A stretch of 64,000 nt of DNA from Marsupella aquatica. Lineage: Eukaryota; Plantae; Marchantiophyta. A program made the position numbers and the translations under genes. Location: assembly GCA_973895155.1 (NCBI GenBank), contig OZ316893.1, positions 24,665,520-24,729,519 on the forward strand, written 5' to 3'. Shown piece by piece: positions 9,447-61,297 of the stretch (position 1 is the first letter of the stretch; every line of letters starts with the position of its first letter). A model generated the notes under the pieces. That model saw nothing but the letters and a program-made list of their open reading frames with translations, was not told where the DNA came from and made no database searches.

Positions 9447-10415
9447 CAATTGGTGGTATGACAAGCACTCTCACCACTGGACCTTGCATCATGTGGTACG
9501 TCCCCTGCCTCCCCAAACCCAAGAAACCCCCTTGCTCAAGCCGATTCCCGCAGGTTTCATCCTTGGCAAGGCCGTTTCTACGGTTTAGCGGCATGGGACG
9601 CTGCTAATCCTCCTTCAACTACTTCTATGAACTTTTTACACACATATACTGGACAGATCCTTCATCGGGTCATGAGATACTTAGCCGGCCTATTCTAGTC
9701 CCTCCCTTGTATTCCTCTCCTGGTCTTCCATTAGGTATGTTTGGATTCCGCCGTCGGAATGTTCCCCAATTGGCTTGGTTAAGCCGCTAAGACCTCTCTC
9801 AGCTCGACACATCCAACTCTCACTCCCCTGCTTACTTCTATTCCTCTATTAGTTGATGTGGGCACTCTTCACACAAGTTAATGCGACACACGAATAGCAA
9901 AATGACTCCTTTTGACTAAGTTATACCATGCACTTGCCATACAAACAGTACATCTCATACACAAGCTCTACGAACTAAGCCGTGAGGCCAACTCTATTCA
10001 GTTCTTAGGTATGAGGAAACATGAATATACACAAGAGTCACTATATAACTAACCGAGAGCTTCTCTTACTACTTGATCCCAGCCCTGCTGGTGCAACTAA
10101 AAACTTGCTAAGGAAAAGGCCATGGACTCCCCGCTGCCCAGGTATTTATCCTGGCAGTGGATCTGACCAGAACTTGCTGCGTAAGCTTAATCTATCCTAC
10201 CTGTAATCTACCTAACTGTACAGCGAGGCAGGAGCACAAGTGTTGCTCCTACCAGTGGATCCGCCATCCCACTAATCTAAGTGTCAGAGTCATCTCCTGG
10301 TCTTGATCCTAATCCTAAACTTGGAGATCTGCGCCCGCCCTGCCCACTCACGCCTCCTACCTCCACGTTTGCCCTCCCTAAAAGGGACGGCGCCCTTACA
10401 CCGTCATGACACCGG

Positions 10416-11902
10416 TGTCGTGATTTTCTCTTAAGTTTTAAAAAATTGTTTGTTTTAATATGCTATAGATTATATAAGTAATTTAGTAGTTAGATTATTA
10501 AATTTAAACTTTATTAAACTTCTTTTGCTATATTAACGGACTATAGAAGTTCCACCAATGCATGTGAGTAGTTCCACCAACTACAATAATATTCACCAAC
10601 GCATAGTGGTTCTACCAACGTACAGTAGCTCCACCAGCGCATAGTAGTTCTACCAACGCACAGTAGGTCCACCAACGCATAGTAGGTCCACCAACGCATA
10701 GTAGTTCCACCTACTAAAAGTAGTTTCACCAACTATGAATAGTACTAACACACTCTTAGGTATTAGATGTTTGACACTTGGCCTTCATCCAAGTGCTTGG
10801 GCTTGATCCATGCCCTCTTGGTGTGCACTATAAATAAAGTGGTGAGGGGCACTCTCCCCTCATTCCGCAGTGTTTATCATTCAAGGTTGTGAAGCTCTTT
10901 TGTGCCTTGAACATAGTAGTGGGGCGTCCTTTGGCCCGGATAGCAAAGGAATGAGTGGTAGATTTATAGATGGGACCTTAGGGAATAAGGTTTCTTTGGG
11001 AATATAGGGGTAGGGCGTCCTTTGGCCCGGATAGCAAAGGAATAGAAGAGCCATCATGAATCTAAGAGAGAGAGAGTTATCCCTGATCTTCCCCTTCGTA
11101 ATCCGTTTTTGATTAGAGTCCATCTTTTAGACAAACCATCTATGAAGCAACATCTAACCTATCATTTTGGAGCTCAGTTTGCAACTGCTGTTATGGTTTC
11201 TAACGAGCCAATAATATACCCAGTGGTGTCGTACCGAGAGGAGTGGGAGTGCATCATCTTTGTCCTTTATTGAAGTCATGGATCTGAATAGGAGTCCGAA
11301 TGATATTCCTGTTTCATTTTTTCTTGGAGATATTAGGATCATATGTCGTAAGAAAACTAATTTTTGTGATGTGTTGGTCTGCAAGTATGATGAAATAGGG
11401 TTTAACAGTATTTTAGTTTCACCTGAACCTTTCTTAATACCCACTACCCTTGTTACTAGAATTATCATTTTGATTTTAGTGTAGAACTTATAAGCATGCA
11501 AGGTTAACTTCAAAAGAGCCAACATGCTCTTGCCAGAAAACACGGTCACCCGGACATAAGTGGCGACCATACTGGGGATACCGCTGGATTTGGAAGTTAG
11601 CTTGTGCATGTTTGAGTTCTAATGAATGAAGAGAGATATGGTTTTGGAACTTTGAGTTCTTAACTTGTTTATATTATTAAGTCAAGAGGGAAGAATTGCA
11701 ATCATGGGAACTGAGATGAATCCAACTGACATGGAGAGGTTTTCATCCTTGATTGCTGCTTACTTACATGGAATGAAGGAGAAGAAGATGGAGGAGAACA
11801 AGAAGAAAGAGTTGCTTGGTAGGACCACGAAGTACCTACACTCGGTTCTTACCAAGCAAGGAGAATTTGATGGGCGAAATGTAACCAAGTATCTCAAGGG
11901 GT
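10416..11902 (+). mobile_element. Truncated Ty3/Gypsy copy (5' LTR, PBS, start of gag), same family as 37465-45924
   Basis: LTR tgtcgtgatt...cccggaca at 10416-11556 is near-identical to 37465-38622. PBS tggcgaccatactgggga at 11561-11578. gag MGTEMNPTDMER... breaks off at 11902. Confidence 0.95.
11278..11484 (+). CDS. LTR-encoded small protein 2 (68 aa); small protein 1 upstream is frameshifted in this copy
   Basis: MDLNRSPNDIPVSFFLGDIR...RIIILILV. ORF1 at ~11056 has a 2-bp GA expansion relative to 38124. Confidence 0.55.
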   Translation: MDLNRSPNDIPVSFFLGDIRIICRKKTNFCDVLVCKYDEIGFNSILVSPEPFLIPTTLVTRIIILILV

Positions 11903-26400: not shown

Positions 26401-28048
26401 TATGTTGAGGTCGGGGGTCATGTGCAGCATTTGGTGGAGGAGCTCCTTCATTGGGTGGTCCACGTCCTTCACCATCAACGTCCACACCAAACCAATCTGT
26501 CATGAAGTCATCCATGGCTGTCTCCTGGTCCTGCATGACCTCAAAATCTGTCCTAGGTGCCCCTTCATCCAAACCCTCATTGTCACTGTCATTGGATGAA
26601 GAATCTGTTGATGATGTGACTCCGTCTTGTGGCATGCCCATTTCTTCATATGTAGCTCTCAACCTCCTTGGCAACATATCTTGACTAGGTCGCACATTCT
26701 ATGAACAATACAATAAAGCATTCACAATCAAACTCCAAATTAAATCCCTCATAAGATAAAAACAATATCGACACATATTATTAACATACAATGTGAAAGA
26801 ACATCATAGGTTTAGGGTGTAAACCCTAACTTACAAAATATATGTTCACAAAGCATGAAGGAACATATAAATAATACATGTCCCTAAAATAAGCCTAATC
26901 CCACTCATAATGTGTAAACAACTCCTCTCCGACCTTGATGGTCCTAGTAGCTACAACTAGACAATGGTCATGATGATATCTTTGCCCAGATGGTGCTGGA
27001 GGGGGACCATCAACAAAAACCCATTCACAGTTTTTCCTACGCTTAGGCCGGGTCCCCACATTACTGTTAATGAAACCGGCTATATTTCCACTACGGATGG
27101 GATCACCATCAATTATACGTTGTTCACTATACTTCCTAGTGCAACCATCAAAAGTATCCATGTCCAATGCATAAGTCTTCCACTCAGGGTGTTGTACAAG
27201 GAGCATGTTCCAATGTCTCCGCTTGTAAATGGGTCCACCATATGGGAACAACGTTGGTCCATCTTGAGAGCGCCCTTTTCCACCCATATAATCCACAATG
27301 ATGTCCTGGCAAGAAAAAATTCCATACCCATGTCTCTCCCCTAGTGTAGAACTTTTGACAATCCAATGTCTTCCCCAAACCTCTATTTCCTCACCATAGG
27401 TTATATCACATGGCAAACCAAGGCAATCAGGATTCCAATCCTTTATGATAGGAACACATTTCCCTGTGAATGTACAAGGTCCCCACCTACCATCAACCCT
27501 ACAGGTGTACTGATCAACTTCCCCTCTAGGTTGCCTTTTAGACCATTTTTTTCCCTCGTGTAACAATACCATCACCCTGAACTGTCCCAACACCACTTCG
27601 CTCTGCTGCAACTAAACGGAAAGCTTGTGAAAGGGCCGAGCCTATAGCATCTAGAACTCCTTGTGAGGGAACATAGGGTGCTGGTGCCGTGGGTGTAGGC
27701 CTATTAGATACCTATAGGGAACAAATCCAACAAAGTGATTGTAAACTTCCCCAACTTATCATGCTAGCAATATTTATTGAATAAAAAATAAACCATAGTA
27801 AGTTTACAAATCACCGTATGGGATGAAGAGGCTCCGGGTGTAAGACCTCGATGTTGTCCATATCGAGAAATATGGTCTGCACATACATATGACTTCTGGA
27901 CAACCATCCCCACACATTTTTTACAACTGCAAAGTTGGCGTGGTGGACCACTAGGTCGACGAGCGGCTGTTTCAGGCTGAGGAGGAGGATCTATGTCCTC
28001 ATCAGAGGAGGAGTCTGATGTGGTGGAAGTTGTAGAGGATGAAGACAT
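23430..28048 (-). pseudogene. CACTA TnpD/Tnp2 transposase (multi-exon, with stops)
   Basis: N-terminal CSCKKC exon; IHACVNDC...ECPICHEPRY; RHVRLGLASDGVSP, VWPVVVMNYNLPPWL, WTMHDYPG; LDPMHIEGNV; HLLVHLVREVAIAGP..RWMYWLERYM; VEGSM...YGKIEEI...FKCKWF. Confidence 0.92.
26895..27602 (-). CDS. SET-domain lysine methyltransferase-like exon inside the CACTA transposase gene
   Basis: VKSSTLGERHGYGIFSCQDI (motif I), IAGFINS...KNCEWV (motif III-like), LVVATRTIKVGEELFTHYEWD (motif IV). Open frame starting at an acceptor-like tag/cag. Confidence 0.8.
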   Translation of the reverse strand, partial: SEVVLGQFRVMVLLHEGKKWSKRQPRGEVDQYTCRVDGRWGPCTFTGKCVPIIKDWNPDCLGLPCDITYGEEIEVWGRHWIVKSSTLGERHGYGIFSCQDIIVDYMGGKGRSQDGPTLFPYGGPIYKRRHWNMLLVQHPEWKTYALDMDTFDGCTRKYSEQRIIDGDPIRSGNIAGFINSNVGTRPKRRKNCEWVFVDGPPPAPSGQRYHHDHCLVVATRTIKVGEELFTHYEWD

Positions 28049-28785
28049 CTGGCAAGTGGAAGATTTGGAATAGCAAGTTAGTAAACAAATAGCTAAAACG
28101 ATCATTTGTAATCCCTACGTAGACATATTAAACTGAAATGAAAGGAAAAAATACCTTTATGAGACCCGGGCTCAGCAATGCCTATAGGTCTTTTGGTCCA
28201 AACTTGATGAACCCAATCTGGAAGTAGGAGGGAGAAATCTGCAAATATACAATGAATTAAGCAATGACTTATGGTAAACTATAGAAAGGGATGATAGACC
28301 CTCAAGTTACAGTAAAAATAAAAAATGCCAGGAAAACAAGCTTTACCTTTCAGATGCCCGAGCTCTCGGAATGCATATGCATTAGCCAAAACTTTCAAAA
28401 CAATGGGGAAGTGCCCTGCAACTCCTAGAGTGTTCCACCCCTTCATGTTAATGAAATAAAGAAAGCATACCCTCAATTAGAATAAAACCTACCCTAAACA
28501 TGAACATATAAAACCATTACCCAAACCCCTCAGCTAAAACCTTACTCAAACCCCTACCTTAAACCCTAACTCAAACTCCATCCTAAGTTACCTATCCATA
28601 TTCCCTGATTACCTATCAAACCCTTACCCAAAAATTCTAACCCAAACCCCTCAATTAAAAATGAAACACAACTTAGAATTAAAATGGAACCCAACCCCTA
28701 TATTTAAAACCTAACCCAAACCCCTAAACTTAAACCAAAATCAAGCCCCTACCCTAAACCCTAACCCAAACCCCTAAACTTAAAC

Positions 28786-37100: not shown

Positions 37101-38123
37101 ACAGTCTACCAACACCAAGATTTGTGGTTCAAACAAATAGAAAAAGTCTATCCAAAGCTTTTGTATTCTCCCACAAACATATGGAACAATGCAGAAAATA
37201 GGGAACACTGATTCTGTGTCGTAGTGCAATTCAGCGAGACCTTGCTCTGACTACAAAGGTGCGCATTGTTCGAATGAGCTGCTGCCTTATCCTTGAGTCC
37301 CCGATCCACTTCCTTCTCAAATATTCCACCACTGCCACTAGATACCATGAAAGCTAAGCGTAAGAAATATTAGGCAGTTTTGCTAGCGCAAGTGCTGAGC
37401 TCATGAGCAGGGCAGATTTCAGGGAGATTGAAACAAGCTCTTGCATTTTCAAATTGGGTAGCGGTGTCGTGATTTTCTCTTAAGTTATAAAAAATTGTTT
37501 GTTTTAATATGTTATAGATTATATAAGTAATTTAGTAGTTAGATTATTAAATTTAAACTTTATTAGACTTCTTTAGCTATATTAACGGACTATAGAAGTT
37601 CCACCAATGCATATGAGTAGTTCCACCAACTACAATAATATTCACCAACGCATAGTGATTCTACCAACGCACAGTAGGTCCACCAGCGCATAGTAGTTCT
37701 ACCAACGCACAGTAGGTCCACCAATGCATAGTAGGTCCACCAACGCATAATAGTTCCACCAACGCATGGTAGTTCCACCTACTAAAAGTAGTTTCACCAA
37801 CTATGAATAGTACTAGCAAACTCTTAGGTATTAGATGTTTGACACTTGGCCTTCATCCAAGTGCTTGGGCTTGATCCATGCCCTCTTGGTGTGCACTATA
37901 AATAAAGTAGTGAGGGGCACTCTCCCCTCATTCTGCAGTGTTTATCATTCAAGGTTGGGAAACTCTTTTGTGCCTTGAACATAGTAGTGGGGCGTCCTTT
38001 GGCCCGGATAGCAAAGGAATGAGTGGTAGACTTATAGATGGGACCTTAGGGAATAAGGTTTCTTTGGAAATATAGGGGTGGGGCGTCCTTTGGCCCGGAT
38101 AGCAAAGGAATAGGAGAGCCATC

Positions 38124-38339
38124 ATGAATCCAGGAGAGAGAGTTATCCCTGATCTTCCCCTTCGTAATTCGTTTTCGATTAGAGTCCATCTTTTAGACAA
38201 ACCATCTATGAGGCAACATCTAACCTATCATTTTGGAGCTCAATTTGCAACTGCTGTTATGGTTTCTAACGAGCCAATAATATACCCAGTGGTGTCATAC
38301 CGAGAGGAGTGGGAGTGCATCATCTTTGTCCTTTATTGA
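38124..38339 (+). CDS. LTR-encoded small protein 1 (71 aa), function unknown
   Basis: ATG-initiated, downstream of the TATA box. About 38/63 ungapped identities by eye to the ORF at 59588-59794 in a divergent solo LTR. Confidence 0.65.
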   Translation: MNPGERVIPDLPLRNSFSIRVHLLDKPSMRQHLTYHFGAQFATAVMVSNEPIIYPVVSYREEWECIIFVLY

Positions 38340-38343
38340 AGTC

Positions 38344-38550
38344 ATGGATCTGACTAGGAGTCCGGATGATATTCTTGTTTCATTTTCTCTTGGAGATATT
38401 AGGATCATATGTCGTAAGAAAACTAATTTTCGTGATGTGTTGGTCCGCAAGTATGGTGAAGTAGGGTTTAACAGTATTTTAGTTTCACCTGAACCTTTCT
38501 TAATACCCACTACCCTTGTTACTAGAATTATCATTTTGATTTTAGTGTAG
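38344..38550 (+). CDS. LTR-encoded small protein 2 (68 aa), function unknown
   Basis: ATG 4 nt after the ORF1 stop. About 50% identity by eye to 59377-59586, with many synonymous codon changes. Confidence 0.65.
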   Translation: MDLTRSPDDILVSFSLGDIRIICRKKTNFRDVLVRKYGEVGFNSILVSPEPFLIPTTLVTRIIILILV

Positions 38551-38768
38551 AACTTATGAGCATGCAAGGTTAACTTCAAAAGAGCCAACATGCTCTTTCC
38601 AGAAAACACGGTCACCCGGACATAAGTGGCGACCATACTGGGGAACCGCTGGATTTGGAAGTTAGCTTGTGCATGTTTGAGTTCTAATGAATGAAGAGAG
38701 ATATGGTTTTGGAACTTTGAGTTCTTAACTTGTTTATATTATTAAGTCAAGAGGGAAGAATTGCAATC

Positions 38769-41700
38769 ATGGGAACTGAGATGAATCCAACTGACATGGA
38801 GAGGTTGTCATCCTTGATTGCTGCTTACTTACATGGAATGAAGGAGAAGGAGATGGAGGAGAACAAGAAGAAGAAGTTGCTTGGTAGGACCATGAAGTAC
38901 CTACACTCGGTTCTTACCAAGCAAGGAGAATTTGATGGGCAAAATGTAACCAAGTATCTCAAGGGGTACTGGACGGAGGCTACAATTCATAAGATTGATG
39001 CAGAAGTTGCAGTCAAGGAGTTTGTATCTTTAGTAGAACCTGAACTCAAGGGAATTGTTACTACCTTGATAGATGGAGCTACTGGGGAGAAGCATGGAAG
39101 GTCTTTGAGTTGAAGATGAAAGAAGAATTTCAGCTTGAAGATCCAGATCGGGTTACTCAAGCATCTTTCCTTGATTGGGTGGCCGATAGAAGCAAGAAGT
39201 TGGGACCTCGAGAACTGATAAGGGAGTTTACGAAGAAGTTCAATCAGCTTCCTAAGATTGGTTCTGAAGTTATCAAGGTACAGAAGGCTACTTTACTTAT
39301 CCGAGCTGCTGATGAGAAGCTTCAAGACGAGTTGGAGCTTGCTCTGGAATTGATGAACCCAAGTCGTGGAGCCAGTCCACCAACTTGGGAGGAGATTGAG
39401 ATTGCTGTGCTTAGGGTCAGCCAAAAGCATAGAAGAAAAAAGCTGAGTCATGAAGGTGCTCTACATGCGGTTGCACCTGTGACTTCTATGAGGAGAATGG
39501 AGAAAATAGAGTCAACAACTGGTAGGGGTGAGAAAAGCATGGACAAAATGGATGAGTTGTCTGAACTCATGAAAAATCTTACCATTCTTGCCACCCAAGC
39601 CTTCGAGCAGATGGGAGGAGGTGCATCAAGACCAGCGTCAAGAGGTGGTCCAGGAGCCGGGAGTTCCATTGGCGGAGCAAGGAGTTGGAATTATATTTGG
39701 TGTGATAGCAAGGAGCACTCAAGGCGTGAATGTGGGGAGCTTTCTGTTGCTCTGAGAGAGAGAATAGTCAAGTTCATTGATCATGATGGCATAAGAAAAC
39801 TTGCTTATCATGATTCAGGAGAGCTTATTCCAGTAAACACAAACAAGGGCGGTATAAAGGTGTTGGTGGAGAGAAGAATGACTGAACATCATACTTCAGC
39901 CATTGCAGCAGCTTTTGGAGATCAGGATGAGCATGAAGCAGATGTTTACACCCTCTTTGGGAGTTCTTTGTCAACAGAGACAGACAAGAAGAGACTAGCA
40001 AAGTTTGTAAGGAGGAAGTCAGGTTGGAGTGATCCAATGTTGATCTCTTCTTTCACTGCAGAAGTGGGATCTCTATGGGATTCTATGGTAGAGGAGAAAC
40101 GAAAGTCGTCGGAACCTTTGGAAGAACATGCCAAAGGAAAACAAAAGGTTGAGCCTGGACCCTCTATTTTGCAGCCATCATCAAGAGTCCCAACAAGGAA
40201 GAGTGTTCGATTTGAAGATAGAGGAAGTACAACAAAGGAGCCTACTTCGACTCCTTCATCCTCAAAGGAGATGGAAGTGGTAAAAAAAGAGAAGGTGGAA
40301 AAGAAAGGACCTGATTGGGTCCTTGGAAGAGATGTTGAGCAACACATTGCGTATGATCAAGTTGCTGAGAAGTTTTGGAAAGCGGAGGTGAGCGGAGTCA
40401 CCAATGAGGAGTTTTTTGCTTGCATGAACTCCAAGGCTCAAGATGCATCACTTGCAAAGGTGAAACAAAAACGATTTTACAAGGAAGGACCTCATGCCTT
40501 GGGAATGGAGGTTTTTTCTGATGTTGATGAAGATGGAGAAGGTTCAATTGTTTCTCAAGCCAGTGTGGAGTGTGAAGTGTATCAAGTGAATGCGGAGAAG
40601 ATCCCTAGACCACAGATGCTAGGGTCTTCGACAAAGGAAGTTCCTGAACCAAAGATGTCAGGAGTTGAGGTATTGGAGATGTGGAAACCATTGGCGAAAG
40701 CAACAACAGGATTTGCAGTGACCCAGGATATGGCAAAAATTAGTCGTGAAGAGGTGCTCAAGGCCTCACAAAGTGTGTGGGTCATGTGTGCTTCAGCTAT
40801 GAAGAATTCTGATTTAGGAGACGACAAGGAGTCCATCTTGGAGCCGTTTTGGGCAAGAACTTGCTCAGTTGTGGAGGTAGAGCTTGTAGGAATGGAGGGC
40901 AAAGCTCGAGCATTGATTGACACAGGATCTGAGGTGAATCTAATGTCAAGAAGCATCTATGATCTTGGGCAATGGATGATTGATTGTGATACTCAATGGT
41001 CTGTCAACTCAATCAATCGTTCAAAGAATATACTTTGGGGAGGATGCCCTGGAGTATCAGTGAAGGTTGGCCATGTGATAGAACCAACTAACATCTTTGT
41101 GCATGATAGCTTGCCCTATGATCTCATTCTAGGGCAGCCTTACATTACTCAAGCTCGAATGGAGTACAAGGTCCTACCAGATGGCACTCATATGGCAAAG
41201 GTAAGGAGTCAGGATGAATTGCGGGTTATCCAATTTCCTGTAGTGAAACCTGGACATTGGAGGAATCGGAAGGAGTTGAGAGGACCTGAACCCAAGGAGG
41301 GAAATGAGGATTTCCGGAAGGCGTCTTGTTAAGCAATGCGGGAAGGCGGGAAGCCATCGCCAATGACCCGCTGGTGACTTGGAATGTGAATAGTTTGTTG
41401 GCAAGCTCATTTGAAGGTGAAAGCTTGCATTGTCAAATTTCTTATGTGAAAGTGTGTGAAGCTACTAAAAAATTCAAAAAAAAAATTGTAAGGATTGAGG
41501 ATACTATGCAAATACATGGATTGCTAGAGGAAAGCGAAGAGATTGAAGGCCTTCTAGATGAAGAAGGAGTAAAAGTATCTTTGAAAGAAATAATTGAAGG
41601 TCTTTCAGAGGGGAAAGCTCATATGGAAATCAATCATGAGCTGTATGGCGAGTTGTCTCAATTTGTTGAGGTCAACACCAAGTACAAAATAGTGGAGAAG

Positions 41701-44700
41701 AAAGTGAGACCAACAGCAATTCCTTTACCTTTGGATGCTAGGGAGATTTTGGAGAAGGCAGGTAAATAGACCAGTCTTAGAGATCGGACTAAGATTGGCC
41801 ACAAATTCACGAAGGAGACCCTTAATCAACTAAGGATTGGTGATGATGGGTTGCTGACAAAAGAAGAGAGAGAAGAGTTTCAGCAAATGATTGGTGAGCA
41901 TGGTAAGGCTTTTGCCTTTTGTCCTGAAGAGATGGGATGTGTGGATCCTAGTGTTGTTACTCCTATGGTAATTTTCACTGTCCCGCATGTTTCTTGGGAC
42001 TTGAAACTCATTCCAGTGCCCAAGGCTTTGTTACCTAAACTTATTGATCTATTAAAGGAGAAGCTTTCCACTAGGATTTTGGAAAGAACAGATGCACCTT
42101 ATTCTAATCGTTGGTTTACCATTCGTAAGAAAAATGGTAAACTTAGATTTATTCAGGACATGCAACCACCTAACAAGGTTACTATTCGCAATACTGGAAT
42201 AGGACCTATAGTAGATGAGTTTGCGGAAGAATTTGCTGGTAGAGCCATCTATTCATGTGGTGATCTCTATTCAGGCTATGATCAGTTTCAGTTGGCTCAG
42301 AGTAGTAGAGATATCACCACTATGAGGACACCTTTGGGGCTACTTTGCATGTGTACCTTGCCTCAAGGGGCAACCAACTCGGTGGCTCACATGCAAAATG
42401 CCATGAATAAGGTATTACACTGTTTCATTCCAGAGAAGACACAACCATTCCTTGATGATATGCCAATCAAGGGATGCTTGGAGACAAAGAAAGATGAGAC
42501 TATACGTGAAGATGGTTTGCGACAATTTGTATGGGAGCACATTCAAGATGTGAAAGCAATCTTGAAGAGGTTAATTGAGGTTGGGCTCACTCTTTCTGGT
42601 GAGAAATCTTCATTTGGGCTTCGTGAAGTCCTAATTGTAGGACAAATTTGTGGAGTTGATGGGAGAAAGCCAAATGGAGGAAAAGTAGATGCAATCAATC
42701 AGATGAAAGATTGTAGGACAACTTTGGAGGTGCGAAGGTTCCTTGGCCGGCGCTTGTTTGTTCTATAGGATCTGGATTCCTCACTTTGCACATATTGCTG
42801 ATCCTTTGTACGGATTATTGAGGAAGAATGTGCACTTTGTTTGGACAGAGGCACATAAGGAGGCTATGCAAAGGTTAAAGGAGGCCTTACTTAGCCCCCT
42901 TGTTTTACATCCCTTATGCTATGATGGAAGACCCATCATTGTCATTGTAGATTCAAGTCTTGATGCTGCTGGATGGGCGGTAGGACAGGATGATGAGGAG
43001 GGGAGAAGATTTGCAGCAAGGTTTGGAGCTAAGATCTTTTCAGCAAGGCAAAGGCATTACCCTCAAATCAAGCGAGAGTTGTGGGGAGCAAGGATAGCCT
43101 TGTGTCAAGAAAAAGTCTACTTGATTGGAGCACAAGTCATTCTTGAGACTGATTGTTTACCACTTTTAGGGATGATTGCTAACTGTGATACTCCAGACAT
43201 TGCTATGCTACGTTGGATAGCTTTTATTAGGATGATCAACCCCAAGCTTTGACACATTGTTGGAAAAGATAATCCAGTAGCAGGTATGCTTTCAAGAGCC
43301 CGCTATGATCAGAATGAAGTGGAGGCAGTTCAAGTGATGAATGGAGAGTTTGAGGTCTTAACATTTCGAGAGGAGCTCTATTCTGGAGAGTTGCTCTTGA
43401 TTGGAAGGTACCTTAGTACTCTTCACAGGCCTGTTGAAATGATAGAAGAGAAGTTTCAACAATTACGGAAGAAGGCTTACAAGTTCATGCTCAAGGATGG
43501 TGTTTTATGGAGAAGGTCTTTGAAGAAAGGACATGTTCCTTGTAGAGTTCTTGATACAGATGAAGAGAAGAAGAGAGTCTTATGGGATTCTCATGATGCT
43601 GTTGAAGCAGGACATCGAGGAGTTAGAGCTACCTATGAGCGGGTTCAAAGGTGGTACTGGTGGTCAGGCATGTATGTGGATGTAAAATCCTATGTTGGAT
43701 CTTGTGAGAGTTGTCAGTATTACTCTAAAGTTCGGTTTAGAGATGGACTTAATCCCACTAGTCCTTTTTCTTTACATTTTCAGTGGGCAGTAGATGTGGT
43801 GTACATGCCATGGGGAATTAGGGGGGCAAAGTACCTTGTCCTTGCAAGAGAAGATTTATCTTCTTATGTTGAAGGAAGGGCTTTAACCTCTAACACTACA
43901 AAAGCAGTATGCAGGTTCATACTTGAAGACGTTATAGCACGTCATGGTTGTTTTGTGCAAATGAGAGCAGATAGAGGAGAGTTGAATTCTGAAGAGGCTA
44001 CAGAATTTTTTGACCGGTTCAACATCAAGCTCAAACTCACTACTGCCTACAACCCAGAAGGAAATGGAAAGATTGAGCGAGGGCACCCATCGATAGTGAA
44101 TGCCTTGGTGAAATCTTGCCGAGGAAAACCATCGCTTTGGCCCAATCTTCTACCATTTGCTCTTTTGGCAGATCGAATGACATGCACTACCACAACAGGA
44201 ATTACGCCTGCCGAATTAGTCTCTGGACATTTGCCTTTGATGCCGATTGAGGAAAATGTTCAAAGTTGGAGGATGATTGAATGGCAAGATAGAATCTCCC
44301 AAGAAAAGTTGCTGGAGCGAAGGATTGAGCACTTTAGCCAGACCAAGGAGAAGATTGAGGAGGTGTTACTAAGGCTAAAGGAGGCTCGTGAGAAGAATAA
44401 GGAACGATTTGACAAGACCCATCGTTTGAGACCAATTCCCATCCAGAATGGAGATTGGGTCTTGATCTATGAGGGAGGGTTGGAACAGCAACATTCTACT
44501 CTGAAGAAGTTTGCACGTCGTTGGAGAGGACCATTTGTGGTGGAGGAGGTTCATCCTAATGCAACATATGTGGTAAGAGAACTTGATGGAGCAATTCATC
44601 GTAATCCCTATGCAGGGAAGCGAGTGAAATTGTTTAAACGAGGAACTCGATTTGTGATAGAGGAAGAGTTTGAACCCGACGACTATGAGGCTTTAGATGA

Positions 44701-44713
44701 AGAAGACATGTAG
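38769..44713 (+). pseudogene. Gypsy gag-pol (gag, aspartic protease, RT, RNase H, integrase) with a few stops and frameshifts
   Basis: PR LIDTGSEVN; RT GDLYSGYDQ...PQGATNS...FLDD; RH IVDSS...ETDC; IN SHD..GH...CESC, AVDVV, RADRGE, NGKIERGH, RWRGPF. Confidence 0.95.
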
Positions 44714-44766
44714 CGATTCTAGGTGTGGTGCATACCGGAAGATGCACAGGTTTGGTAGGGGTGATG

Positions 44767-45924
44767 TGTCGTGATTTTCTCTTAAGTTATAAAAAATTGT
44801 TTGTTTTAATATGTTATAGATTATATAAGTAATTTAGTAGTTAGATTATTAAATTTAAACTTTATTAGACTTCTTTAGCTATATTAACGGACTATAGAAG
44901 TTCCACCAATGCATATGAGTAGTTCCACCAACTACAATAATATTCACCAACGCATAGTGGTTCTACCAACGCACAGTAGGTCCACCAGCGCATAGTAGTT
45001 CTACCAACGCACAGTAGGTCCACCAATGCATAGTAGGTCCACCAACGCATAATAGTTCCACCAACGCATGGTAGTTCCACCTACTAAAAGTAGTTTCACC
45101 AACTATGAATAGTACTAGCAAACTCTTAGGTATTAGATGTTTGACACTTGGCCTTCATCCAAGCGCTTGGGCTTGATCCATGCCCTCTTGGTGTGCACTA
45201 TAAATAAAGTAGTGAGGGGCACTCTCCCCTCATTCTGCAGTGTTTATCATTCAAGGTTGGGAAACTCTTTTGTGCCTTGAACATAGTAGTGGGGCGTCCT
45301 TTGGCCCGGATAGCAAAGGAATGAGTGGTAGACTTATAGATGGGACCTTAGGGAATAAGGTTTCTTTGGAAATATAGGGGTGGGGCGTCCTTTGGCCCGG
45401 ATAGCAAAGGAATAGGAGAGCCATCATGAATCCAGGAGAGAGAGTTATCCCTGATCTTCCCCTTCGTAATTCGTTTTCGATTAGAGTCCATCTTTTAGAC
45501 AAACCATCTATGAGGCAACATCTAACCTATCATTTTGGAGCTCAATTTGCAACTGCTGTTATGGTTTCTAACGAGTCAATAATATACCCAGTGGTGTCAT
45601 ACCGAGAGGAGTGGGAGTGCATCATCTTTGTCCTTTATTGAAGTCATGGATCTGAATAGGAGTCCGGATGATATTCCTGTTTCATTTTCTCTTGGAGATA
45701 TTAGGATCATATGTCGTAAAAAAACTAATTTTCGTGATGTGTTGGTCCGTAAGTATGGTGAAGTAGGATTTAACAGTATTTTAGTTTCACCTGAACCTTT
45801 CTTAATACCCACTACCCTTGTTACTAGAATTATCATTTTGATTTTAGTGTAGAACTTATGAGCATGCAAGGTTAACTTCAAAAGAGCCAACATGCTCTTT
45901 CCAGAAAACACGGTCACCCGGACA
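44767..45924 (+). repeat. 3' LTR, with intact small ORFs at 45426-45641 and 45646-45852
   Basis: Direct repeat of 37465-38622. Confidence 0.97.
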
Positions 45925-47841
45925 GCGGCTGGAAGATCGCTAGGACAGGAGGAAGCCGTGAGCACGACAGGTTTCAGCGATTGAAACAAGCTCTTGCATT
46001 TTCAAATTGAGTAGCGGCGGGAAGGTGGCTAGGATAGGAGGAAGTCGTCACCCAGGTCGGGAGAAACCCTCAGAAAAGACAAAGGTAAGGTGAATGCCAG
46101 GTTGGAAGAAACCCTTACCAAAGACAAAAGGTGAGGTACAAGCGCAGGCTCAGGCCATTGGAGAGACGGTGCTCAAGCTTGGACTTAAATACCCTATAAC
46201 AGAGGTGTAAATAGTGTGTAAATCATATGTAAATAGGGTGTAAATGGGCTAGTTGATAAAAAAGCTGAAGAATTTGTTGTGATGAAGAAGTGCATCTAAA
46301 AGAGTGAACAAACTAGGGTCATTAGTGTGAAAGATAGACATTAGGTCCACAGCTCCATAGAATTTAATTAGAGTTTGAAAAGCCTAAATTAAAGCAACCC
46401 AAAGTAGTGAAGGCAACACTTTTTGGGAGTGAGATTTTGAAACTGCAAAATGAAGACGTAGTAAATGCCATTTTACACTACAAGTAGCTCCTTGTAGGCC
46501 TGTAAAAAAGATTACAAATTGGTGTTAAGCTTGGTTTTAGAACCCAAGTTGACAGCGGCCCGAGTCAATCTGGATGATCTTTTAAGTGTAAGGGTTGAGT
46601 TCCAAAGCCAAATTAGAAGTGAGAAGTTGTGAGGGAATGTACATGTGTGCAAGGCTTGACTTGTAGACCCTGTAAAGAATGTGTAAATGGGCTAGTTGAC
46701 AAGGAAAATTGCAAACTAGTGATTTTTATTGTGCCCACTCTAAACTCCCAAGCTTCACTTTAGTCCGCGTCGTGACTAAAGTTTCACTGCCTCTGTGAGC
46801 TTTGCAGTCCACCTTACAGATCGAACAAAGCAATCACCTCCCTTCACATCCGCACTAATCACCTTTCGCAAAGAGTTGCAATCACCTTCCGCAATACCAG
46901 GAAGCTTGCTCCCTCTCGTTCAATGCCTTCTGCAGCAGGAGCGATCACCTCTGCCGAAGCAACTTCAATTGAACACACAGCAACGGGGCGGGCAGCGACA
47001 ACATTGACAGTGAACGATAGACTCTACTCAAACGACCTCAAAGCTGTCACAAAAGAACGAGGAAACATTGAGGCAGAAAACAAAGTCCCTAGCACCAGGC
47101 AACCAAAGTATTGGGAAACCAAAGGATCGGGACCAAAGGAAGGGACGACATGCCATTCCAACAATGGGAAGGGGGAACGGGACGCGGGAACGGGCAATTT
47201 TTTGATGGTGGGGATGGATGCCTATGATCCAATGGTCCCTAAACCCCCATCCCCTTAACATGCAACCCCCGACCCTTCACATCAAACCCCCCCTAAACCC
47301 CCTTTAGTGAAAACCCAGCCACCCCCTAGCTAGCCTTGACATATAAACCCCCTAATGTGCTTAAGACAACTCGACTGTGGCGACACTATGTTTGCAATGC
47401 CAGGGTCATCCATTTAGAGCGCCGCTTGCAAGCTCTGGCTCTCAAGATCCTCCCAAGGCAGCAAACAAGTTAGGGTTCACGGTCCATGTTCCATCCCTCT
47501 GTAGTCCACCCTCCATGAACCTCACTTCATTAAACCCAAAATATTTTTGGTCACAAAATAAGGCCATTTAATGAGTTATGCCCCTTGCTATCACCCTCTT
47601 TATATAATTACCCCTCCTCAGCATAAGTGGTCATTACCCATGATGTGCTAGACTATTCATCCTTCACAAAGTAGGAAGGTTACTTCTCATAGTCTTTTAG
47701 TGAACCATAAAACACTAATAGTCTTTTGTAGTCTTCAACAAAACCGGTGCAATGGGTATGAGTCGTTTTAAGTATGGAAAAAGGACTTAGTGGGCTTAGT
47801 CCTATAAGGTATGGTCTAAATTGCCCCGGTTTCTACTAGTG

Positions 47842-50800
47842 CAGTGCCGTGGTTAGTCTTAGGCCAAAATCCATTTTTCAATGGAAATTGATTATTTCCC
47901 TCCCCTTCCATTGCAAGCCCATTTGACAACAGCTCCACAATTCTTTCCCAATATTTAACAAGAGGAAATCTTTCCTTGTATGCTATTGACGTCTCATCAA
48001 TGCAACTCCTTCTCAAAAAATCAAGGTACTTGTTAAGGAATGGGATTATCTCTTCTGATTTTTTGTGTATCTCTCCTATGGATTTAGCTAAGGGTTGTCC
48101 ACTGGGTAAAAGAAGAGAATTTGTTATTGGATCAGTTGCCCAAATGCACCTTCCGCCAACAGGAGCCCAAGCTTGCTTAACATGGGACTTATACTGAAAT
48201 ATTGGTACATTATCTCTCATAGAGAAAAGAAATGATACCGGTTTTGAGTGACCTTGAATATCTTTGACCTTAAAACTTTGAAGATATTCTTTGTAAGATG
48301 CAACTTCTTGTATCAATCTTGGAACTGGATGAATGCTCTCACATTCCCAAACCTCTGCCATTAGTGCAAGAAGGGTTGCAACTTCCTTGTGCTGAACTTG
48401 ATATGATACCTTGGAAAATAGTGCATCAACATCTTTGTGCGTATGACCAACCATTAGAAAGGACATTTGAACAGTTTCAAATATTCCTCTACTCACAAGC
48501 TCCGAGCAAAATGCCATGACCGTTTGGTTTTTGTTGTCCTTTGCTGAATTATCCATTTGCAATGTTAGGTGCCTTGGCAAGGGCATGAACAACGGACTGC
48601 CCTTCTCACCACCCACGTCCCCTCCATCATCCTCATCCTGTCGGGTTGGGATGGTCTCAGTCTGACTGTCGGCAGCTCCATCTTCAGAACCAATATACCT
48701 ATTTACTTGAATATTCTTTGGTTCCAAATATCCAGACAAAAATGCATCAAAGTCAAGTAGGGCTTGAAAGAAAGGTCTGTGAGGTTCCCAATGCAAGCCA
48801 TCAAGCATGTCACCTGTCTTGTCTCCATTGTACTCTTCAAGATCTCGAAGACACTTAGCCAAGGATGTCACTGTGAAATCTGCATCTCCTGGCCAAAGGC
48901 CAATGACACTAAAGTGTGCATATACTCCTGGATCTCTCCCGTGGGTCAACATCCTCGTGAGAGCGATAGGTAGCGGCATTCCATGACCCGAAAGTGATTT
49001 AGGAGTACTAACCATTTTTGGAATCCATGTCTTTGCTTGATCCATCTTGTCGTGAATAATGCAAAGATATTCTCCTGGATGTTGCTTGGCCATCACTCGA
49101 TGAGCGTAGTAAACATATCTACGTGACATTTGCTCACAAAGATGTTGAGCTCTATTTTCTTCAATTTCAGCACGTTCTTTTTTCCTTCTCTCTCGCATCA
49201 AACTGTCTTTGTATTCACAACAAAGCGTACACTTGGCAAATGCGCCATCCTTGTGAAAACTGAAGTTTGCAAATGATGTGCTCCATATCTTGTAGAGAGT
49301 GTTATCCGTAACAGGAGGAAGCCCTTCTTCCTTCATCTTTGTTCTCACATCTTCCAAAATCTCTAACTTTTTGTAACACGCTGGAAGTCGATACTCAATG
49401 TTGTCTGTCCCATGAGCCCTTCCATAAGGCATATGAGGCATTGGCTCTGCATTTTGAGTCAAAAATGCCTCTAGAAGAGCTCGCGCATGCAAGGTATTTG
49501 ACCTTGTTTTCTTCAAGCCTGTGTTCCCATGGAACCCAATAATTTGCAACCCTCCATGTATCTTCTCTTGTAATCATAATACTTGGTGTGATTAAAACCA
49601 TGGATGGTTGCAAATGCATCTTTACAGATGACCATACCTTTGAGAACATGGTGTCCCTTATCACGAACATCATCCTCTCTATAGTGGAAGAGGTTGAAAA
49701 TGTGTGATGTTTTGGACTCGCTAGACATCCCGTGAAATTCCATCCTAACATCTTCTATATCTTCCCTTGGCATAATGCGACAACATTTATGCTTGCAGCA
49801 ATTTACTCTTTTGATCTCATCAATTGCGGCTTCTGTTGTTTTTGAAACTGCCTTGGTTTGCAAGAGCCTCCTTTTCTTCTCAACAGGATCAACTTGATTC
49901 CTCTTGTTGAAGTTATATGGCCTTTGACGACATCCGGATGCGGATCCAACCACATGATCCGGATTCAGATCATCCCTATCCATTGACTCCATATTCTCTA
50001 TACCTTCTACCAGAATGTCTGACAAAATTTTTCCAGTTGCTACTAGTTTTGTGTGATCAATTCGCCATCGAACCAAACTAATTACTCCCTTGTGAATGCT
50101 TGGAAAGTATTGCGATTCCATGACATCTTTCACAACAACCCCTACATAGTCTTCTCCCAGGATTTCATCATCAACAACCGCCGTTGCTTGAGGCACAGTG
50201 ATAGTCCCAGTGGCAACCTTACTCGATCGTCCTGAACCAATGTATAATTCGACCAACTCTGACATCCAGTTGGACCGTTGGTAATAATCAGAATGAGTTT
50301 TGGTCGATTTTGTTGATGGAGAATGTGAGACAAAACTCTCCTCAATTAAAATGTCGCCATCACCTTGCTTCTTAGAGGAAGACTTTCTACCTTCATCAAC
50401 ATTCCAACCTTTTTTATGAACATCGGCCAAGTCCCAGAGAACCCGTGAGTCTTTTGCCTCTTCAATTGTTTCAGCCCCATTGTGTATGTAAGGTAGAGCC
50501 TTACTACCATGAATAACATCAGTGATTTTCACACTGATCCGAGACTCACCAAGTAATATGTTGTGACATCGGTCCTTTGGATTTACCTTGAAAATAACTC
50601 CAAGGGCTACACAACACCCATCAATGAGCATTTCAACCTCGTCCCCTTGCCTTAGAGTGTTTGATGCATCCTCCATAACAATTGTAGGAGATTTATCCAA
50701 GTTATTATCTGGTCGAGTTGAACAACTACCAGTACTGATGCGTTTTTGGGAATCTAGAGTTATAGAGAGATACGCGCACGAGATCTCCCAAATAACACAT

Positions 50801-58298: not shown

Positions 58299-59376
58299 GA
58301 TCAAACCGTCTGACTTTCCATTTTTTCATACCAATCTAAAATACTTCTCGGTCTCACAGAATGCGGTCAGCAATTAGAGCCTCGATATCCACCTACGCTC
58401 TTTGGGGCTTCTAAAAATGGTATGTAGGTTTTCTTTGTTGTTAGTCATTGTCTTGTATTTTGGACTGAGACAATCTCAGTCCAAAGTTCAAATTTGGTTT
58501 TCTTTCTAAGAGTTGTATTTGTTGCACTTGTAGAATCGAGACCTTGTCCCATCAAGCGGAAGTTGCTGATTTTGGATCTTAACAAAATACTTTGGGATTC
58601 ACTTGAATTCCAAAGCAAGGGCAAATCCAGAAACATTGTGACCCCAAATGGAGTGCATTGGGATAGATCAAATGGAACTAGTCGCATGTATACAGAGAGG
58701 CCAGGGTTCCATGAGTTTCTAAAGTTGGTTTTTGACCGGTTTGACATTGCAATTTGGACATGTGCTGGGATGCCGCGGACAGTGAAAATGTTGAACATGA
58801 TGTTCACTGTTGAGAAGCGGTTGAAACTGAAGTTTGTATTCACACAGGTGGAAGCCTTTGACACAGGCATTCAAAGGCGTGACATTACAAATGGAAAGGC
58901 ACATGTGCTATTGAAGGATTTTCGGGTGGTATGGAGTGCATTTGGAAATCTATATGATGAAACCAACACACTCCTTGTGGATGACTCCCCCTTGAAGGCA
59001 TTTGCCAACCCAGACATGACCGGACTATTTCCAGTGCCCTACACGCATGTCAATCGTGGAGACAATTTTCTTCTAACAATTCTTTGGCCATGTCTTGAGA
59101 AACTGTCACATGCAAGTGACATTCGTTGTTATCTTCTCCTAAACTCTCCAAAGTGGTCTCTATTGCACATTAAGAGAGACAAGGCAAAAAATGAGATTAC
59201 TTATGATCAACTTAGTAAGAGATGTGCAACAAAAATTTGGAAGTCACAGTATAGGCATAGTATGCTGGACCTCAATAGCAATGAGATTCCTTGGGCTATG
59301 AAGCACCGTTGTCTGGGGGGAAAATGTGGTTCTTGAGGAAGCACCGGGCCTATGGCTGCTAGTGTCAAGAGAGAAC

Positions 59377-59586
59377 TTAAGTTAAGATCATGATTACTAT
59401 TCTAGACTGGGTAGCAGACACAACAAGGAACGGTTCCGTGGATGAAAGCACAACATCATAACCCTTTTCTCCATACCTACGGACTATTGCCTCCTTGGCA
59501 GCTACCTTGGGTCGAGTTACAAAACGAATATCTCCCAACGAGAAAGAAACGGGAGGCTCATCGGAGGGAGGTTTGTTGAGATCCAT
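59377..59586 (-). CDS. LTR small protein 2 homolog
   Basis: MDLNKPPSDEPPVSFSLGDIR...EPFL...RIVIMILT; ATG 1 nt after the ORF1 stop. Confidence 0.65.
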   Translation of the reverse strand: MDLNKPPSDEPPVSFSLGDIRFVTRPKVAAKEAIVRRYGEKGYDVVLSSTEPFLVVSATQSRIVIMILT

Positions 59587-59587
59587 C

Positions 59588-59794
59588 TCAATACAAGATA
59601 AAAATTGTGCAAGCCCAATCCTGCCCGTAAACTACATAAGGGTATACAATTGGCTCTATTGAATTTAATACCGCAGTTGCAAATGCTTCTCCAAAGTGAA
59701 AAGTCATATGCTGGCGCATTATCTCTTTTTGGAGTACATGAATTCTAATAAGGAAAGGATTAGGGAGAGGAAGAATAGGTACTGGTCTGGGCAT
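59588..59794 (-). CDS. LTR small protein 1 homolog
   Basis: MPRPVPILPLPNPFLIRIHVLQKEIMRQHMTFHFGEAFATAV...WACTIFILY, colinear with 38124-38339. Confidence 0.65.
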   Translation of the reverse strand: MPRPVPILPLPNPFLIRIHVLQKEIMRQHMTFHFGEAFATAVLNSIEPIVYPYVVYGQDWACTIFILY

Positions 59795-61297
59795 TATCGT
59801 ACTATCAAATATTTCATCCAACTAATTTTTATTCTAATGACAGGAGATAGAATCATTCAACAAAAAGATCATCCATTTCAAACAAATATCATGCATTGAG
59901 TTAACTCTAAGTATATACATGCAGATGTTTATCTTAATAGGTTGATCTTCTTTTGAATGAAAATACTATCTGAAGGTCCAACTCATACAAAATACCTCTG
60001 GCCGAGCCGAAGCTCTAAGCAAGAGTGCATGAGTGGGTCTACTTCATAAGGGTTATATTCATAGAAGAGATCATCAAGTCCAATGGATTTTTAAGACTTC
60101 ACAACTTAGTTGATGAAAAATGGGGAGTCTGGGGAGAGAGCCCCTCTCCTCTTTATTTATAGTGCTCACACCTCAAGCACACGGATCAAGCATGGCACAC
60201 GGATGGAAGCCATGTGTCACACATCCAAGGCAAGTAAGTGTGCTAGTACTGTAGTTACGTGAGTGGAGCAACTGTAGACAGTACACTGTAGTATGCACAC
60301 TGTAGATCGTACACTATAGCATGCATACTGTAGATCGTACACTGTAACATGCACACTGTAGATCATACACTGTAGCATGCACACTGTAGATTGTACACTG
60401 TAGCATGCACACTGTAGATCGTATACTGTAGCATGCACACTGTAGGTCTTGCACTATAGCATGCACACTATAGATCGAACAATATAGCATGCATACTGTA
60501 GACCGTGTACTGTAGCATGCACACTGTAGGTTGTGCACTGTAGCATGCACACTATATACTGCATATGCGAGAATTTAAACTACTATCCTATACTACTAAG
60601 CTATACTTAGGAGGAACTTACTAAACAAAGAATCCCCACGACACCGTATATGTAGCTTACGTCCTGAGGTGGAACTTGACGATGCACTTGTCACCTCACT
60701 TGCTAGATCATTTGTAGGACGGGAATATTCAGGTCTGTATAGAGAAAATCCCAGACACTTTTTGCGGGAGATTATAGCAGTTAGGAACAACACCACCAAA
60801 TTTCATCTCCCTGAAGATAAAGGGAGTTGCAACCATGATATTAGGGTAGATAGTAAAGGAGACAAGGGCACGTGCTCAAATAAATATTGTAAGGAGCACT
60901 TTGTTTAGAGATCTGACTCATGTTAAGCCCATTAGACAGTAAAAATGGGTGCCAGCCCTGGATATTCATTGTAAGTTTGGACACAATTGTATATAATTAT
61001 TTCACACATTATCAATCAATGGTCCTTGCCTAGGCTTCTTTGTGCGTAAATGTTTTTACAAGTATGATCTCTATCCCATGGTTCTTTGTGAACTAATAAG
61101 TAATATAATACTATTATAATTAATATAATATAATATATTAATATAATACTAATAAGATTTGGCCTATAAAGTGTACATTTAGGTATCAAAAAGTGTACAT
61201 TTGGGCTTCTTAAAGTGTACATTTGGGGACATAAAAGTGTACATTTCAGGACTGATTTGTGAACAAAAGAAAATACACTTTTAATGAATAGGCTGAT

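What the first reader, a model, noticed from the sequence alone, without database searches (positions are those of the whole stretch)
38124..38550. Two small proteins encoded inside the LTR, conserved between divergent LTR families
Seen: downstream of the LTR TATA box lie two back-to-back ORFs (71 and 68 aa, 4 nt between stop and ATG). The solo LTR at 59310-60643 has different U3 repeats and little alignable non-coding DNA, yet keeps both ORFs in the same order (1-nt gap) at roughly 60% and 50% aa identity by eye. Differences are largely synonymous, e.g. gtt tca ttt tct ctt gga gat att agg vs gtt tct ttc tcg ttg gga gat att cgt (both VSFSLGDIR). The two ORFs also resemble each other (IR...FG/YG...S.EP), suggesting an ancient duplication. 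Known: plant LTRs are generally non-coding; LTR-borne genes are mostly known from retroviruses (nef, MMTV sag). Inference: a bicistronic accessory module under purifying selection that even solo LTRs could express, perhaps a heterodimeric anti-silencing, copy-control or targeting factor.
Basis: partly seen in the sequence, partly recalled or inferred. Interest (0 to 1): 0.88.

Follow-up and report, generated by a model that had tools for sequence, protein, structure and literature searches.

The report
Transposon ends encode co-repressor hook
The terminal repeats of a plant jumping gene carry two tiny conserved protein genes of a new family, and one begins with a motif that likely grabs the host's TOPLESS gene-silencing protein, which would let the transposon borrow host repression machinery.

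Summary
Two back-to-back ORFs (71 and 68 aa) lie downstream of the TATA box inside the LTR of a Phygy-like Ty3/gypsy element (4-bp NCGN target duplication). They recur in a divergent solo LTR (59% and 49% identity) and in a third LTR family from a metagenome contig. Between families dN/dS is 0.10-0.30 for ORF1 and 0-0.70 for ORF2, while leader and trailer DNA align no better than shuffles. The two ORFs are likely paralogues of one small beta-alpha-alpha-beta-beta domain with no Pfam, PDB or fold match. New here: ORF2 and its relatives begin with DLNxxP, the plant EAR motif that binds TOPLESS. When hits were rescored without the motif, 15 of 26 carried DLNxxP and 21 of 26 an N-terminal DLN; none of 13 ORF1 sequences has it. 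Best reading: ORF2 likely recruits TOPLESS, and the pair would act as a small repressor, first guess on the element's own promoter. Rivals are a TOPLESS decoy, an integration tether or a cis-acting leader role. Transcription, translation, dimer formation and binding are untested, and DNA context was seen for only three families.

The parts
37465..38622 (+). 5' LTR (family A), 1158 bp, TG...CA
   Evidence: 8 differences from the 3' LTR
37461..37464 (+). 4-bp target site duplication GCGG (NCGN), repeated at 45925-45928
37592..37801 (+). U3 tandem array, 19-nt unit, about 11 copies
   Evidence: TRF
37897..37903 (+). TATA box within a core promoter 69-80% identical between the three families
38124..38339 (+). 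ORF1, 71 aa; predicted beta-alpha-alpha-beta-beta domain; no EAR motif
38344..38550 (+). ORF2, 68 aa; N-terminal arm plus the same domain. This copy reads DLTRSP where its sister copies read DLNRSP
38627..38644 (+). primer binding site, 4 nt after the LTR
   Evidence: the priming tRNA was not identified
38769..44713 (+). gag-pol region: RT, RNase H, integrase in Ty3/gypsy order; broken into six open stretches over three frames; no chromodomain or extra RNase H hit
44751..44766 (+). purine-rich tract before the 3' LTR
   Evidence: sequence
44767..45924 (+). 3' LTR with intact ORF1 (45426-45641) and ORF2 (45646-45852)
45649..45666 (+). codons for DLNRSP, an exact DLNxxP EAR motif
   Evidence: motif definition
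10416..11556 (+). third family-A LTR (preceded by CCGG, followed by PBS and about 345 bp of internal region); ORF1 frameshifted just after its start, ORF2 (11278-11484) open with DLNRSP
59310..60643 (-). solo LTR, family B, 1334 bp, target duplication ACGG
59588..59794 (-). family B ORF1, 68 aa
59377..59586 (-). family B ORF2, 69 aa, starts MDLNKPP
60271..60553 (-). family B U3 array, 28-nt unit, about 10 copies, unrelated to the family A unit

Best explanation
The LTR of this Phygy-like retrotransposon carries two small genes under purifying selection; the second begins with a DLNxxP motif that likely recruits the host co-repressor TOPLESS, and the two proteins would pair into a small repressor that likely damps transcription from the element's own LTR. 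Steps. Shown: two ORFs downstream of the TATA box, same order in three LTR families, selected at protein level; DLN(xx)P conserved in ORF2 and absent from ORF1. Inferred, strong (about 0.85): both ORFs are one duplicated domain. Inferred (about 0.65): DLNxxP on a variable 10-15 residue arm binds the TOPLESS WD40 domain as it does in ERF repressors and in the fungal effector Jsi1. Predicted, untested (about 0.5): the domain dimerises (ORF1 with ORF2) and uses its conserved basic residues on strand 1 and helix 1 to hold DNA or a DNA-bound host factor. Guess: the target is the family-specific U3 repeat array, so that every expressed LTR, solo LTRs included, feeds back on the family's transcription; host genes are the second candidate target. 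ORF2 would be made by reinitiation after ORF1 or from a spliced or shorter RNA.
For: Selection: between-family dN/dS 0.10-0.30 in 5 of 5 ORF1 comparisons; ORF2 0-0.30 in the 4 comparisons that involve family B and 0.56-0.70 in the 3 A-vs-C comparisons; second codon position is the best conserved in all 12. Flanking leader and trailer do not align. Third family L001 has U3 repeats, TATA, ORF1 and ORF2. P0069 holds ORF1 and ORF2 in one frame. Motif: with a profile lacking the N-terminal arm, 26 of 33 small hits still pass E<1e-3; 15 of these 26 have DLNxxP and 21 an N-terminal DLN. Among 35 representatives under 60% identity (median 32%) D, L, N, P are kept in 32, 30, 31, 22, as well as the core's best residues (K26 34, G38 32, P51 31), while the next eight arm positions reach at most 12. 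Shuffles give DLNxxP in 66 of 70000. P0018 has two DLNxxP in tandem, and in four proteins DLN follows a residue other than Met (P0017, P0024, P0029, P0031), so it is not just a start context. Leu and Asn codons of the motif vary synonymously between families. 0 of 13 ORF1 sequences have DLN or LxLxL. DLNRPP, DLNLPP, DLNEPP are validated plant repressor motifs (PMC9956375); DLNxxP binds the second WD40 domain of TOPLESS (PMC8126959); moss has TOPLESS proteins that bind repression motifs (PMC3443911). The domain was duplicated in tandem a second time (P0023), which fits work in pairs.
Against: No transcript, peptide or binding data were obtained. The very copy flagged has DLTRSP, 1 of 4 LTR copies in the window has a frameshifted ORF1, and recent copies differ mostly by non-synonymous changes (ORF2 5' LTR vs 11278 copy: 8 non-synonymous, 0 synonymous), as expected for decay after insertion but not supportive. 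In the third family the Pro is one place later (DLNSTP counted as xxP, but 9 of 85 relatives have DLN without a nearby Pro, 5 lack DLN and 7 lack the arm). In the review only 5 of 65 DLNx(x)P motifs lie outside the C-terminal region; here it is N-terminal. Binding of DLNxxP by bryophyte TOPLESS was not seen in the passages read. Nothing shows DNA binding: no known DNA-binding fold matched, ORF1 is not basic overall (K+R 4-6, D+E 3-7), and the ORF2 model is poor (pLDDT 55). A self-repressor working in trans is hard to keep by selection among replicating copies (inference), which favours the decoy rival. Leaders hold 2, 12 and 3 upstream ATGs, so plain scanning to ORF1 is doubtful.
Confidence: 0.42

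Rival explanations
1. ORF2 binds TOPLESS as a decoy, like the fungal effector Jsi1: it disturbs host repressor complexes and so lifts repression from the element or from host genes it needs. ORF1 would be the partner or stabiliser. This is an anti-silencing role.
For: Same motif evidence. Jsi1 uses DLNxxP to bind TOPLESS and the outcome is activation (PMC8126959). A function that helps replication explains strong purifying selection between families most simply (inference). Family-specific U3 arrays recall VANC targets (PMC5735166 abstract).
Against: A decoy needs only the motif, yet the folded domain is as conserved as the motif and ORF1 keeps the domain without the motif. No likeness to VANC was found in Pfam.
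Confidence: 0.2
2. The proteins ride with the integration complex and tether it to TOPLESS-bound, repressed chromatin, doing the job a chromodomain does in other gypsy elements (compare Ty5 integrase and Sir4, recalled).
For: No chromodomain hit on the integrase ORF. All three insertions in the window abut NCGG, and Phygy is the one lineage with a target preference (PMC6317226). Phygy is enriched at centromeres in a liverwort (PMC12885004). Such a role acts in cis, which suits purifying selection (inference).
Against: NCGN is a 4-base preference that integrase alone can supply (inference). Nothing links the ORFs to integrase or Gag.
Confidence: 0.1
3. The ORFs act on the element's own RNA: as conserved upstream ORFs that set how much gag-pol is translated from the genomic RNA, or as small RNA-binding proteins (Tat/Rev-like, recalled). 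DLN would then serve something other than TOPLESS.
For: Both ORFs lie between the TATA box and the gag start at 38769, so a full-length RNA must carry them in its leader. Stop-to-start gaps are short (4, 1, 18 nt). Conserved basic residues R24, K26, R30 could bind RNA. A 43-nt stretch with a 7-bp inverted repeat is duplicated in the family A leader.
Against: Conservation spans a whole folded domain over 35 lineages at a median 32% identity and ORF1 folds confidently (pLDDT 83.5), unlike a simple stalling peptide. The exact match to a known co-repressor motif, once duplicated in tandem (P0018), is left unexplained.
Confidence: 0.2
4. The ORFs are not functional genes: conserved R/U5 DNA or an antisense frame creates the pattern.
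For: Part of the non-coding LTR is conserved between families (core promoter). A 113-aa antisense ORF overlaps the region in family A. Young copies show little sign of selection.
Against: Codon-position pattern 2>1>3 in all 12 between-family comparisons but B vs C of ORF2 (0.43, 0.71, 0.40, same order by a narrow margin), with near-saturated synonymous sites; every antisense frame has 3 or more stops over the span in all three families; dozens of relatives keep length and motif; 3 of 5000 shuffles give such a pair.
Confidence: 0.05

Closest known systems
Phygy lineage of non-chromovirus Ty3/gypsy elements (Neumann et al. 2019, PMC6317226)
   Same: 4-bp NCGN target duplication, length 8460 bp (Phygy 7656-9968), polyprotein filling the internal region, no extra domain.
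   Different: That survey lists no extra ORF for Phygy, but counted only ORFs of 250 codons or more, so these would be missed. RT phylogeny not tested; priming tRNA not identified.
Additional ORFs of plant LTR retrotransposons (env-like, Grande gene23, RIRE2, Retand; Retrosat2 ORF0) (PMC7264820, PMC3485330)
   Same: Conserved accessory ORFs of unknown origin, suspected regulators, some nuclear.
   Different: Those lie in the internal region; these lie wholly inside the LTR, are under 75 aa, come as a paralogous pair, survive in solo LTRs and carry a host co-repressor motif.
DLNxxP EAR repressors and adaptors (ERF3/4, NIMIN1, NRR) and the effector Jsi1 (PMC9956375, PMC8126959)
   Same: DLNxxP motif joined to a small domain; Jsi1 is a parasite's copy of the same motif.
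   Different: Here the carrier is a transposon, the motif is N-terminal, the attached domain is new, and binding is untested.
VANC anti-silencing proteins of VANDAL transposons (PMC5735166)
   Same: Transposon-encoded regulator beside family-specific tandem repeats that change fast between related elements.
   Different: DNA transposon, large protein, removes methylation; no sequence link found; binding to the repeats is only a guess here.
Retroviral LTR-borne genes, HIV nef and MMTV sag (recalled, not from a call)
   Same: Protein-coding sequence inside an LTR.
   Different: Those lie in U3, upstream of the LTR promoter; these lie downstream of the TATA box, so each LTR could be its own transcription unit.

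Membership tests
Ty3/gypsy LTR retrotransposon | LTRs TG...CA, PBS, PPT, order RT-RNase H-integrase | tested here: met
Phygy lineage | 4-bp target duplication with NCGN | tested here: met
   GCGG and ACGG duplications, CCGG before the third LTR; definition
Phygy lineage | size 7.7-10 kb, no chromodomain or extra RNase H, polyprotein fills the interior | tested here: met
   8460 bp; Pfam shows one RNase H and no chromodomain
Phygy lineage | RT/RH/INT phylogeny inside the Phygy clade | not testable with these tools
   no reference sequences of the lineage were available to the tools
Phygy lineage | PBS mostly for tRNA-Trp (81%) | tested here: inconclusive
   PBS located but no host tRNA set to match it against
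EAR-motif repressors (DLNxxP type) | DLNxxP or DLNx(1-4)P sequence | tested here: met
   3 of 4 window copies; 56 of 85 relatives DLNxxP and 8 more with the Pro shifted; 15 of 26 in the motif-blind rescoring. The 5' LTR copy itself does not match
EAR-motif repressors (DLNxxP type) | motif-dependent binding to TOPLESS/TPR or SAP18 | not testable with these tools
   no host TOPLESS sequence in hand; needs a bench test
EAR-motif repressors (DLNxxP type) | motif-dependent repression of a target, nuclear location | not testable with these tools
   needs a reporter assay
Phd/YefM-type DNA-binding dimer (considered from strand and helix order, recalled) | structural match to the Phd/YefM N-terminal domain | tested here: inconclusive
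   not among the listed matches (best Z 3.9)
VANC anti-silencing proteins | homology to VANC, binding of tandem motifs, local demethylation | not tested
   no direct comparison with VANC sequences; Pfam gave no family for the ORFs

The most novel reading that the evidence does not exclude
A whole lineage of seed-free-plant retrotransposons has turned its LTR into a self-contained two-gene regulatory unit: a heterodimer of a new fold whose EAR-bearing subunit hijacks TOPLESS and whose EAR-less twin sets target choice or switches repression off. Solo LTRs would then be hundreds of trans-acting regulators, and this would be the first transposon-encoded mimic of a host co-repressor motif in plants.
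Probability: 0.35. Interest if true: 0.93.

Novelty: new variant of a known kind. Interest (0 to 1): 0.78.

Why it matters
LTRs are treated as non-coding and solo LTRs as inert promoters. Here the LTR itself carries selected genes of a new protein family, too short for the surveys that catalogued extra ORFs. The EAR motif turns a long-open question, what accessory ORFs of plant retrotransposons do and whether transposons regulate their own copy number, into a direct test: one binding assay and one reporter assay in moss or liverwort cells. It would also put transposons beside fungi and bacteria as parasites that converge on TOPLESS, and give a 68-residue repression module.

Tried and rejected
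Family and fold searches found nothing: Pfam, 0 families for the four window ORFs; 30 of 32 ORF2-family members had no Pfam hit at E 0.1 and 2 hit Bestrophin_2 weakly, which I treat as chance; PDB sequences, 0 hits; Foldseek against PDB and viral models, none at E<=0.001; VIA-align over 48161 chains, best Z 3.9; ESM Atlas, best 0.82 for ORF1 and no usable hit for P0023. These blanks show neither novelty nor absence. The Phd/YefM idea got no support from them. Only the ORF1 model was searched; the ORF2 model was too poor. Nine long repeat proteins among the 42 profile hits were dropped: they fell to E>=48 or vanished on core-only scoring. P0023/P0061 looked like ORF1-ORF2 fusions, but the tree makes their two halves sisters, an independent duplication (57 columns, many forks open). 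DNA context searches: metagenome scan with ORF1 found none, with ORF2 one locus; viral contigs none in five scans; prokaryote genomes none. No whole genome is held for the window, so copy number and disruption rate were not counted. Sequencing runs: no RNA holder listed; contigs of four runs cover the LTR but give no expression data or copy number. Leader RNA folds no better than shuffles (z 0.08); Rfam gave no match. Earlier findings of this scan: none returned. An antisense gene was rejected.

Full report
The element. The finding sits in the 5' LTR of an 8460-bp Ty3/gypsy element, 37465-45924. Its LTRs are 1158 bp with 8 differences, flanked by GCGG on both sides. The interior encodes RT, RNase H and integrase in gypsy order, with no chromodomain hit, in six open stretches over three frames. 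A third LTR of the same family lies at 10416-11556 after CCGG, and a solo LTR of a second family at 60643-59310 has an ACGG duplication. A 4-bp NCGN duplication is the mark of the Phygy lineage, described from the moss Physcomitrella (PMC6317226, passages and one supplement row). Phygy also occurs in a liverwort (PMC12885004, passages). A ribosomal L18a remnant in the window scores about twice as high against seven entries that I take to be plant ribosomes as against all others. So the host is a land plant, likely seed-free; this is inference.

The observation. ORF1 (38124-38339) and ORF2 (38344-38550) lie 227 bases downstream of the TATA box and end 72 bases before the LTR end. Family B has both, 59% and 49% identical. 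A metagenome contig, L001, is a third family: U3 repeats, the same core promoter, then ORF1 (74 aa) and ORF2 (69 aa) 18 nt apart; its LTR ends are not on the contig. Of 5000 shuffles of the LTR, 3 gave such a pair.

Selection. Between families, synonymous sites are near saturation (pS 0.45-0.75) and non-synonymous sites are not (pN 0.31-0.42). dN/dS is 0.10-0.30 in the 5 ORF1 comparisons, 0-0.30 in the 4 ORF2 comparisons with family B, and 0.56-0.70 in the 3 ORF2 comparisons of A with C, one of which is not significant (bootstrap 0.15). Leader and trailer align no better than shuffles, the ORFs do (z 10-16), and so does the core promoter (z 15-22). No antisense frame is open across the span. 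Against: within family A the young copies show mostly non-synonymous changes (8 to 0 in one ORF2 comparison), 6 of the 8 differences between the two LTRs fall in the ORFs (3 synonymous), and ORF1 is frameshifted in 1 of 4 LTR copies. Of the 40 best-supported variants listed from 233 in other genomes, 16 fall in the ORFs: 5 synonymous, 11 not, none a stop; none of the six listed indels falls in the ORFs, though low-depth deletions do. This fits decay after insertion on top of long-term selection.

The protein family. ORF1 has close relatives at 76-77%; it was not searched with a profile at depth, so its range is unknown. The ORF2 profile gave 42 hits, 33 of them small proteins, and a second round 48; named ones are only 'hypothetical protein'. 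ORF1 and ORF2 relatives occur on contigs of equal length (7922, 966, 921), likely the same contigs. P0069 carries ORF1 and ORF2 in one frame and P0037 joins the end of ORF1 to the start of ORF2. For the other lineages I saw no DNA, so an LTR location is assumed, not shown. The two ORFs are likely paralogues: hhalign probability 78%, ORF1 proteins score 16-30 bits on an ORF2 core profile, and six ORF1 rows form one branch (100/100). ORF1 is predicted to fold as strand-helix-helix-strand-strand (pLDDT 83.5).

The motif. ORF2 starts M-D-L-N-x-x-P. DLNxxP is one of the two EAR motifs; DLNRPP, DLNLPP and DLNEPP, all seen among the relatives, are listed in characterised repressors (PMC9956375, passages). 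It binds the second WD40 domain of TOPLESS, and the fungal effector Jsi1 copies it (PMC8126959, passages). Moss has two TOPLESS proteins that bind repression motifs (PMC3443911 and PMC10953049, passages; neither passage set tests DLNxxP in moss). Because my search profile contained the motif, I rescored the hits with a profile lacking it: 26 of 33 small hits still pass, 15 with DLNxxP, 21 with an N-terminal DLN. Over all 85 ORF2-like sequences, 56 have DLNxxP, 8 a shifted Pro, 9 DLN only, 5 none and 7 no arm (this set is not motif-blind). Among 35 representatives the motif is as conserved as the core and the linker behind it is not. One protein has two copies, four have it away from the start Met, and none of 13 ORF1 sequences has it. 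The flagged 5' LTR copy reads DLTRSP; the other two family A copies read DLNRSP, and the four runs show the Asn codon at nearly all depth.

Mechanism. Motif, linker, small conserved domain is the layout of a minimal repressor or adaptor. With an EAR-less paralogue beside it, and a second independent tandem duplication of the domain (P0023), I read the pair as a dimer that brings TOPLESS to a target. My first guess for the target is the element's own U3 array, which differs between families A and B while family C mixes motifs of both, much as VANC targets change by tandem repeat turnover (PMC5735166, abstract). Shown: genes, selection, motif. Inferred: paralogy, TOPLESS binding. Guessed: dimer, DNA binding, target, direction. 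I give the repressor reading 0.42, a TOPLESS decoy 0.2, an RNA-level role 0.2, an integration tether 0.1 and no function 0.05. How the ORFs are expressed is open: leaders hold upstream ATGs and the full-length RNA must carry both ORFs ahead of gag.

Novelty. [quoted passage not shown] The Phygy survey lists no extra ORFs but required 250 codons; its element table and sequence file were not among the supplements I could read and might bear on this. Retrosat2 ORF0 is described as upstream of gag-pol (PMC3485330, passages). A paper on moss transposon expression has no occurrence of 'ORF' (PMC7466625, passages). An atlas of Arabidopsis transposon products has none of 'TOPLESS' (PMC13547354), nor has a 2026 preprint on transposons as controlling elements. 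Ten library searches (listings only, except the papers named) showed no report of LTR-borne ORFs in Phygy or of a transposon-encoded EAR protein; most subscription journals are not covered. I file it as a new variant of a known kind: a retroelement accessory gene, but in a new place, of a new family, with a testable host target.

Noticed in passing
window 57084-58298 and 9062-9607: Two ORFs with weak N6/N4 DNA methylase hits (PF01555), one next to a NIF-type phosphatase ORF (58686-59336), in transposon-rich DNA. Possibly transposon-borne methyltransferases.
   Followed up: no
window 47816-49441 and 16898-17647: Two DUF7869 proteins that look like transposases of a DNA transposon, with Ulp1 protease (15145-15624) nearby.
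   Followed up: no
window 23613-27572: CACTA-type element on the minus strand (Transposase_21, DUF4218) with an adjacent SET-domain ORF at 26895-27572.
   Followed up: no
window 37978-38020 and 38069-38111: A 43-nt stretch duplicated in the LTR leader, each with a 7-bp inverted repeat around a 10-nt loop; the start of P0002 reads through what looks like the same stretch.
   Followed up: partly
L001 369-531: By eye the leader looks like an intron: GTGAG donor, TACTAAC, pyrimidine tract and AG six bases before the ORF1 start. In all three families an AG also lies within 2 bases of the ORF2 start, so ORF2 may have its own spliced RNA.
   Followed up: no
L001 1-296: U3 array mixes the family A motif (TAGTTCCAC) and family B motifs (CTACAGTGT, TACGATCTA), which share nothing with each other.
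   Followed up: partly
window 38622, other genomes: Loose ends behind the LTR end in runs X1-X3 begin CCGT, ACGT, ACGC, again NCGN; one contig joins the LTR end to the LTR start.
   Followed up: no
window 38130-38221: A low-depth 90-base deletion inside ORF1, replaced by 10 other bases, occurs in all four runs laid: an old defective copy shared between them.
   Followed up: no
P0079-P0096: A 66-aa ORF2-like subfamily occurs on many different contigs of 87-596 kb, so it is multi-copy in another well-assembled genome; whether ORF1 precedes it is unknown.
   Followed up: no
window 51148-52473 and 53597-54004: Arrays of 34-, 66- and 134-nt units built on a near-palindrome, in direct and inverted orientation.
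   Followed up: no
window 28511-28774: Degenerate C-rich repeats resembling plant telomere units.
   Followed up: no
window 1050-1415 and 62942-64000: A ribosomal protein L18a remnant and the RT of an unrelated retroelement.
   Followed up: partly
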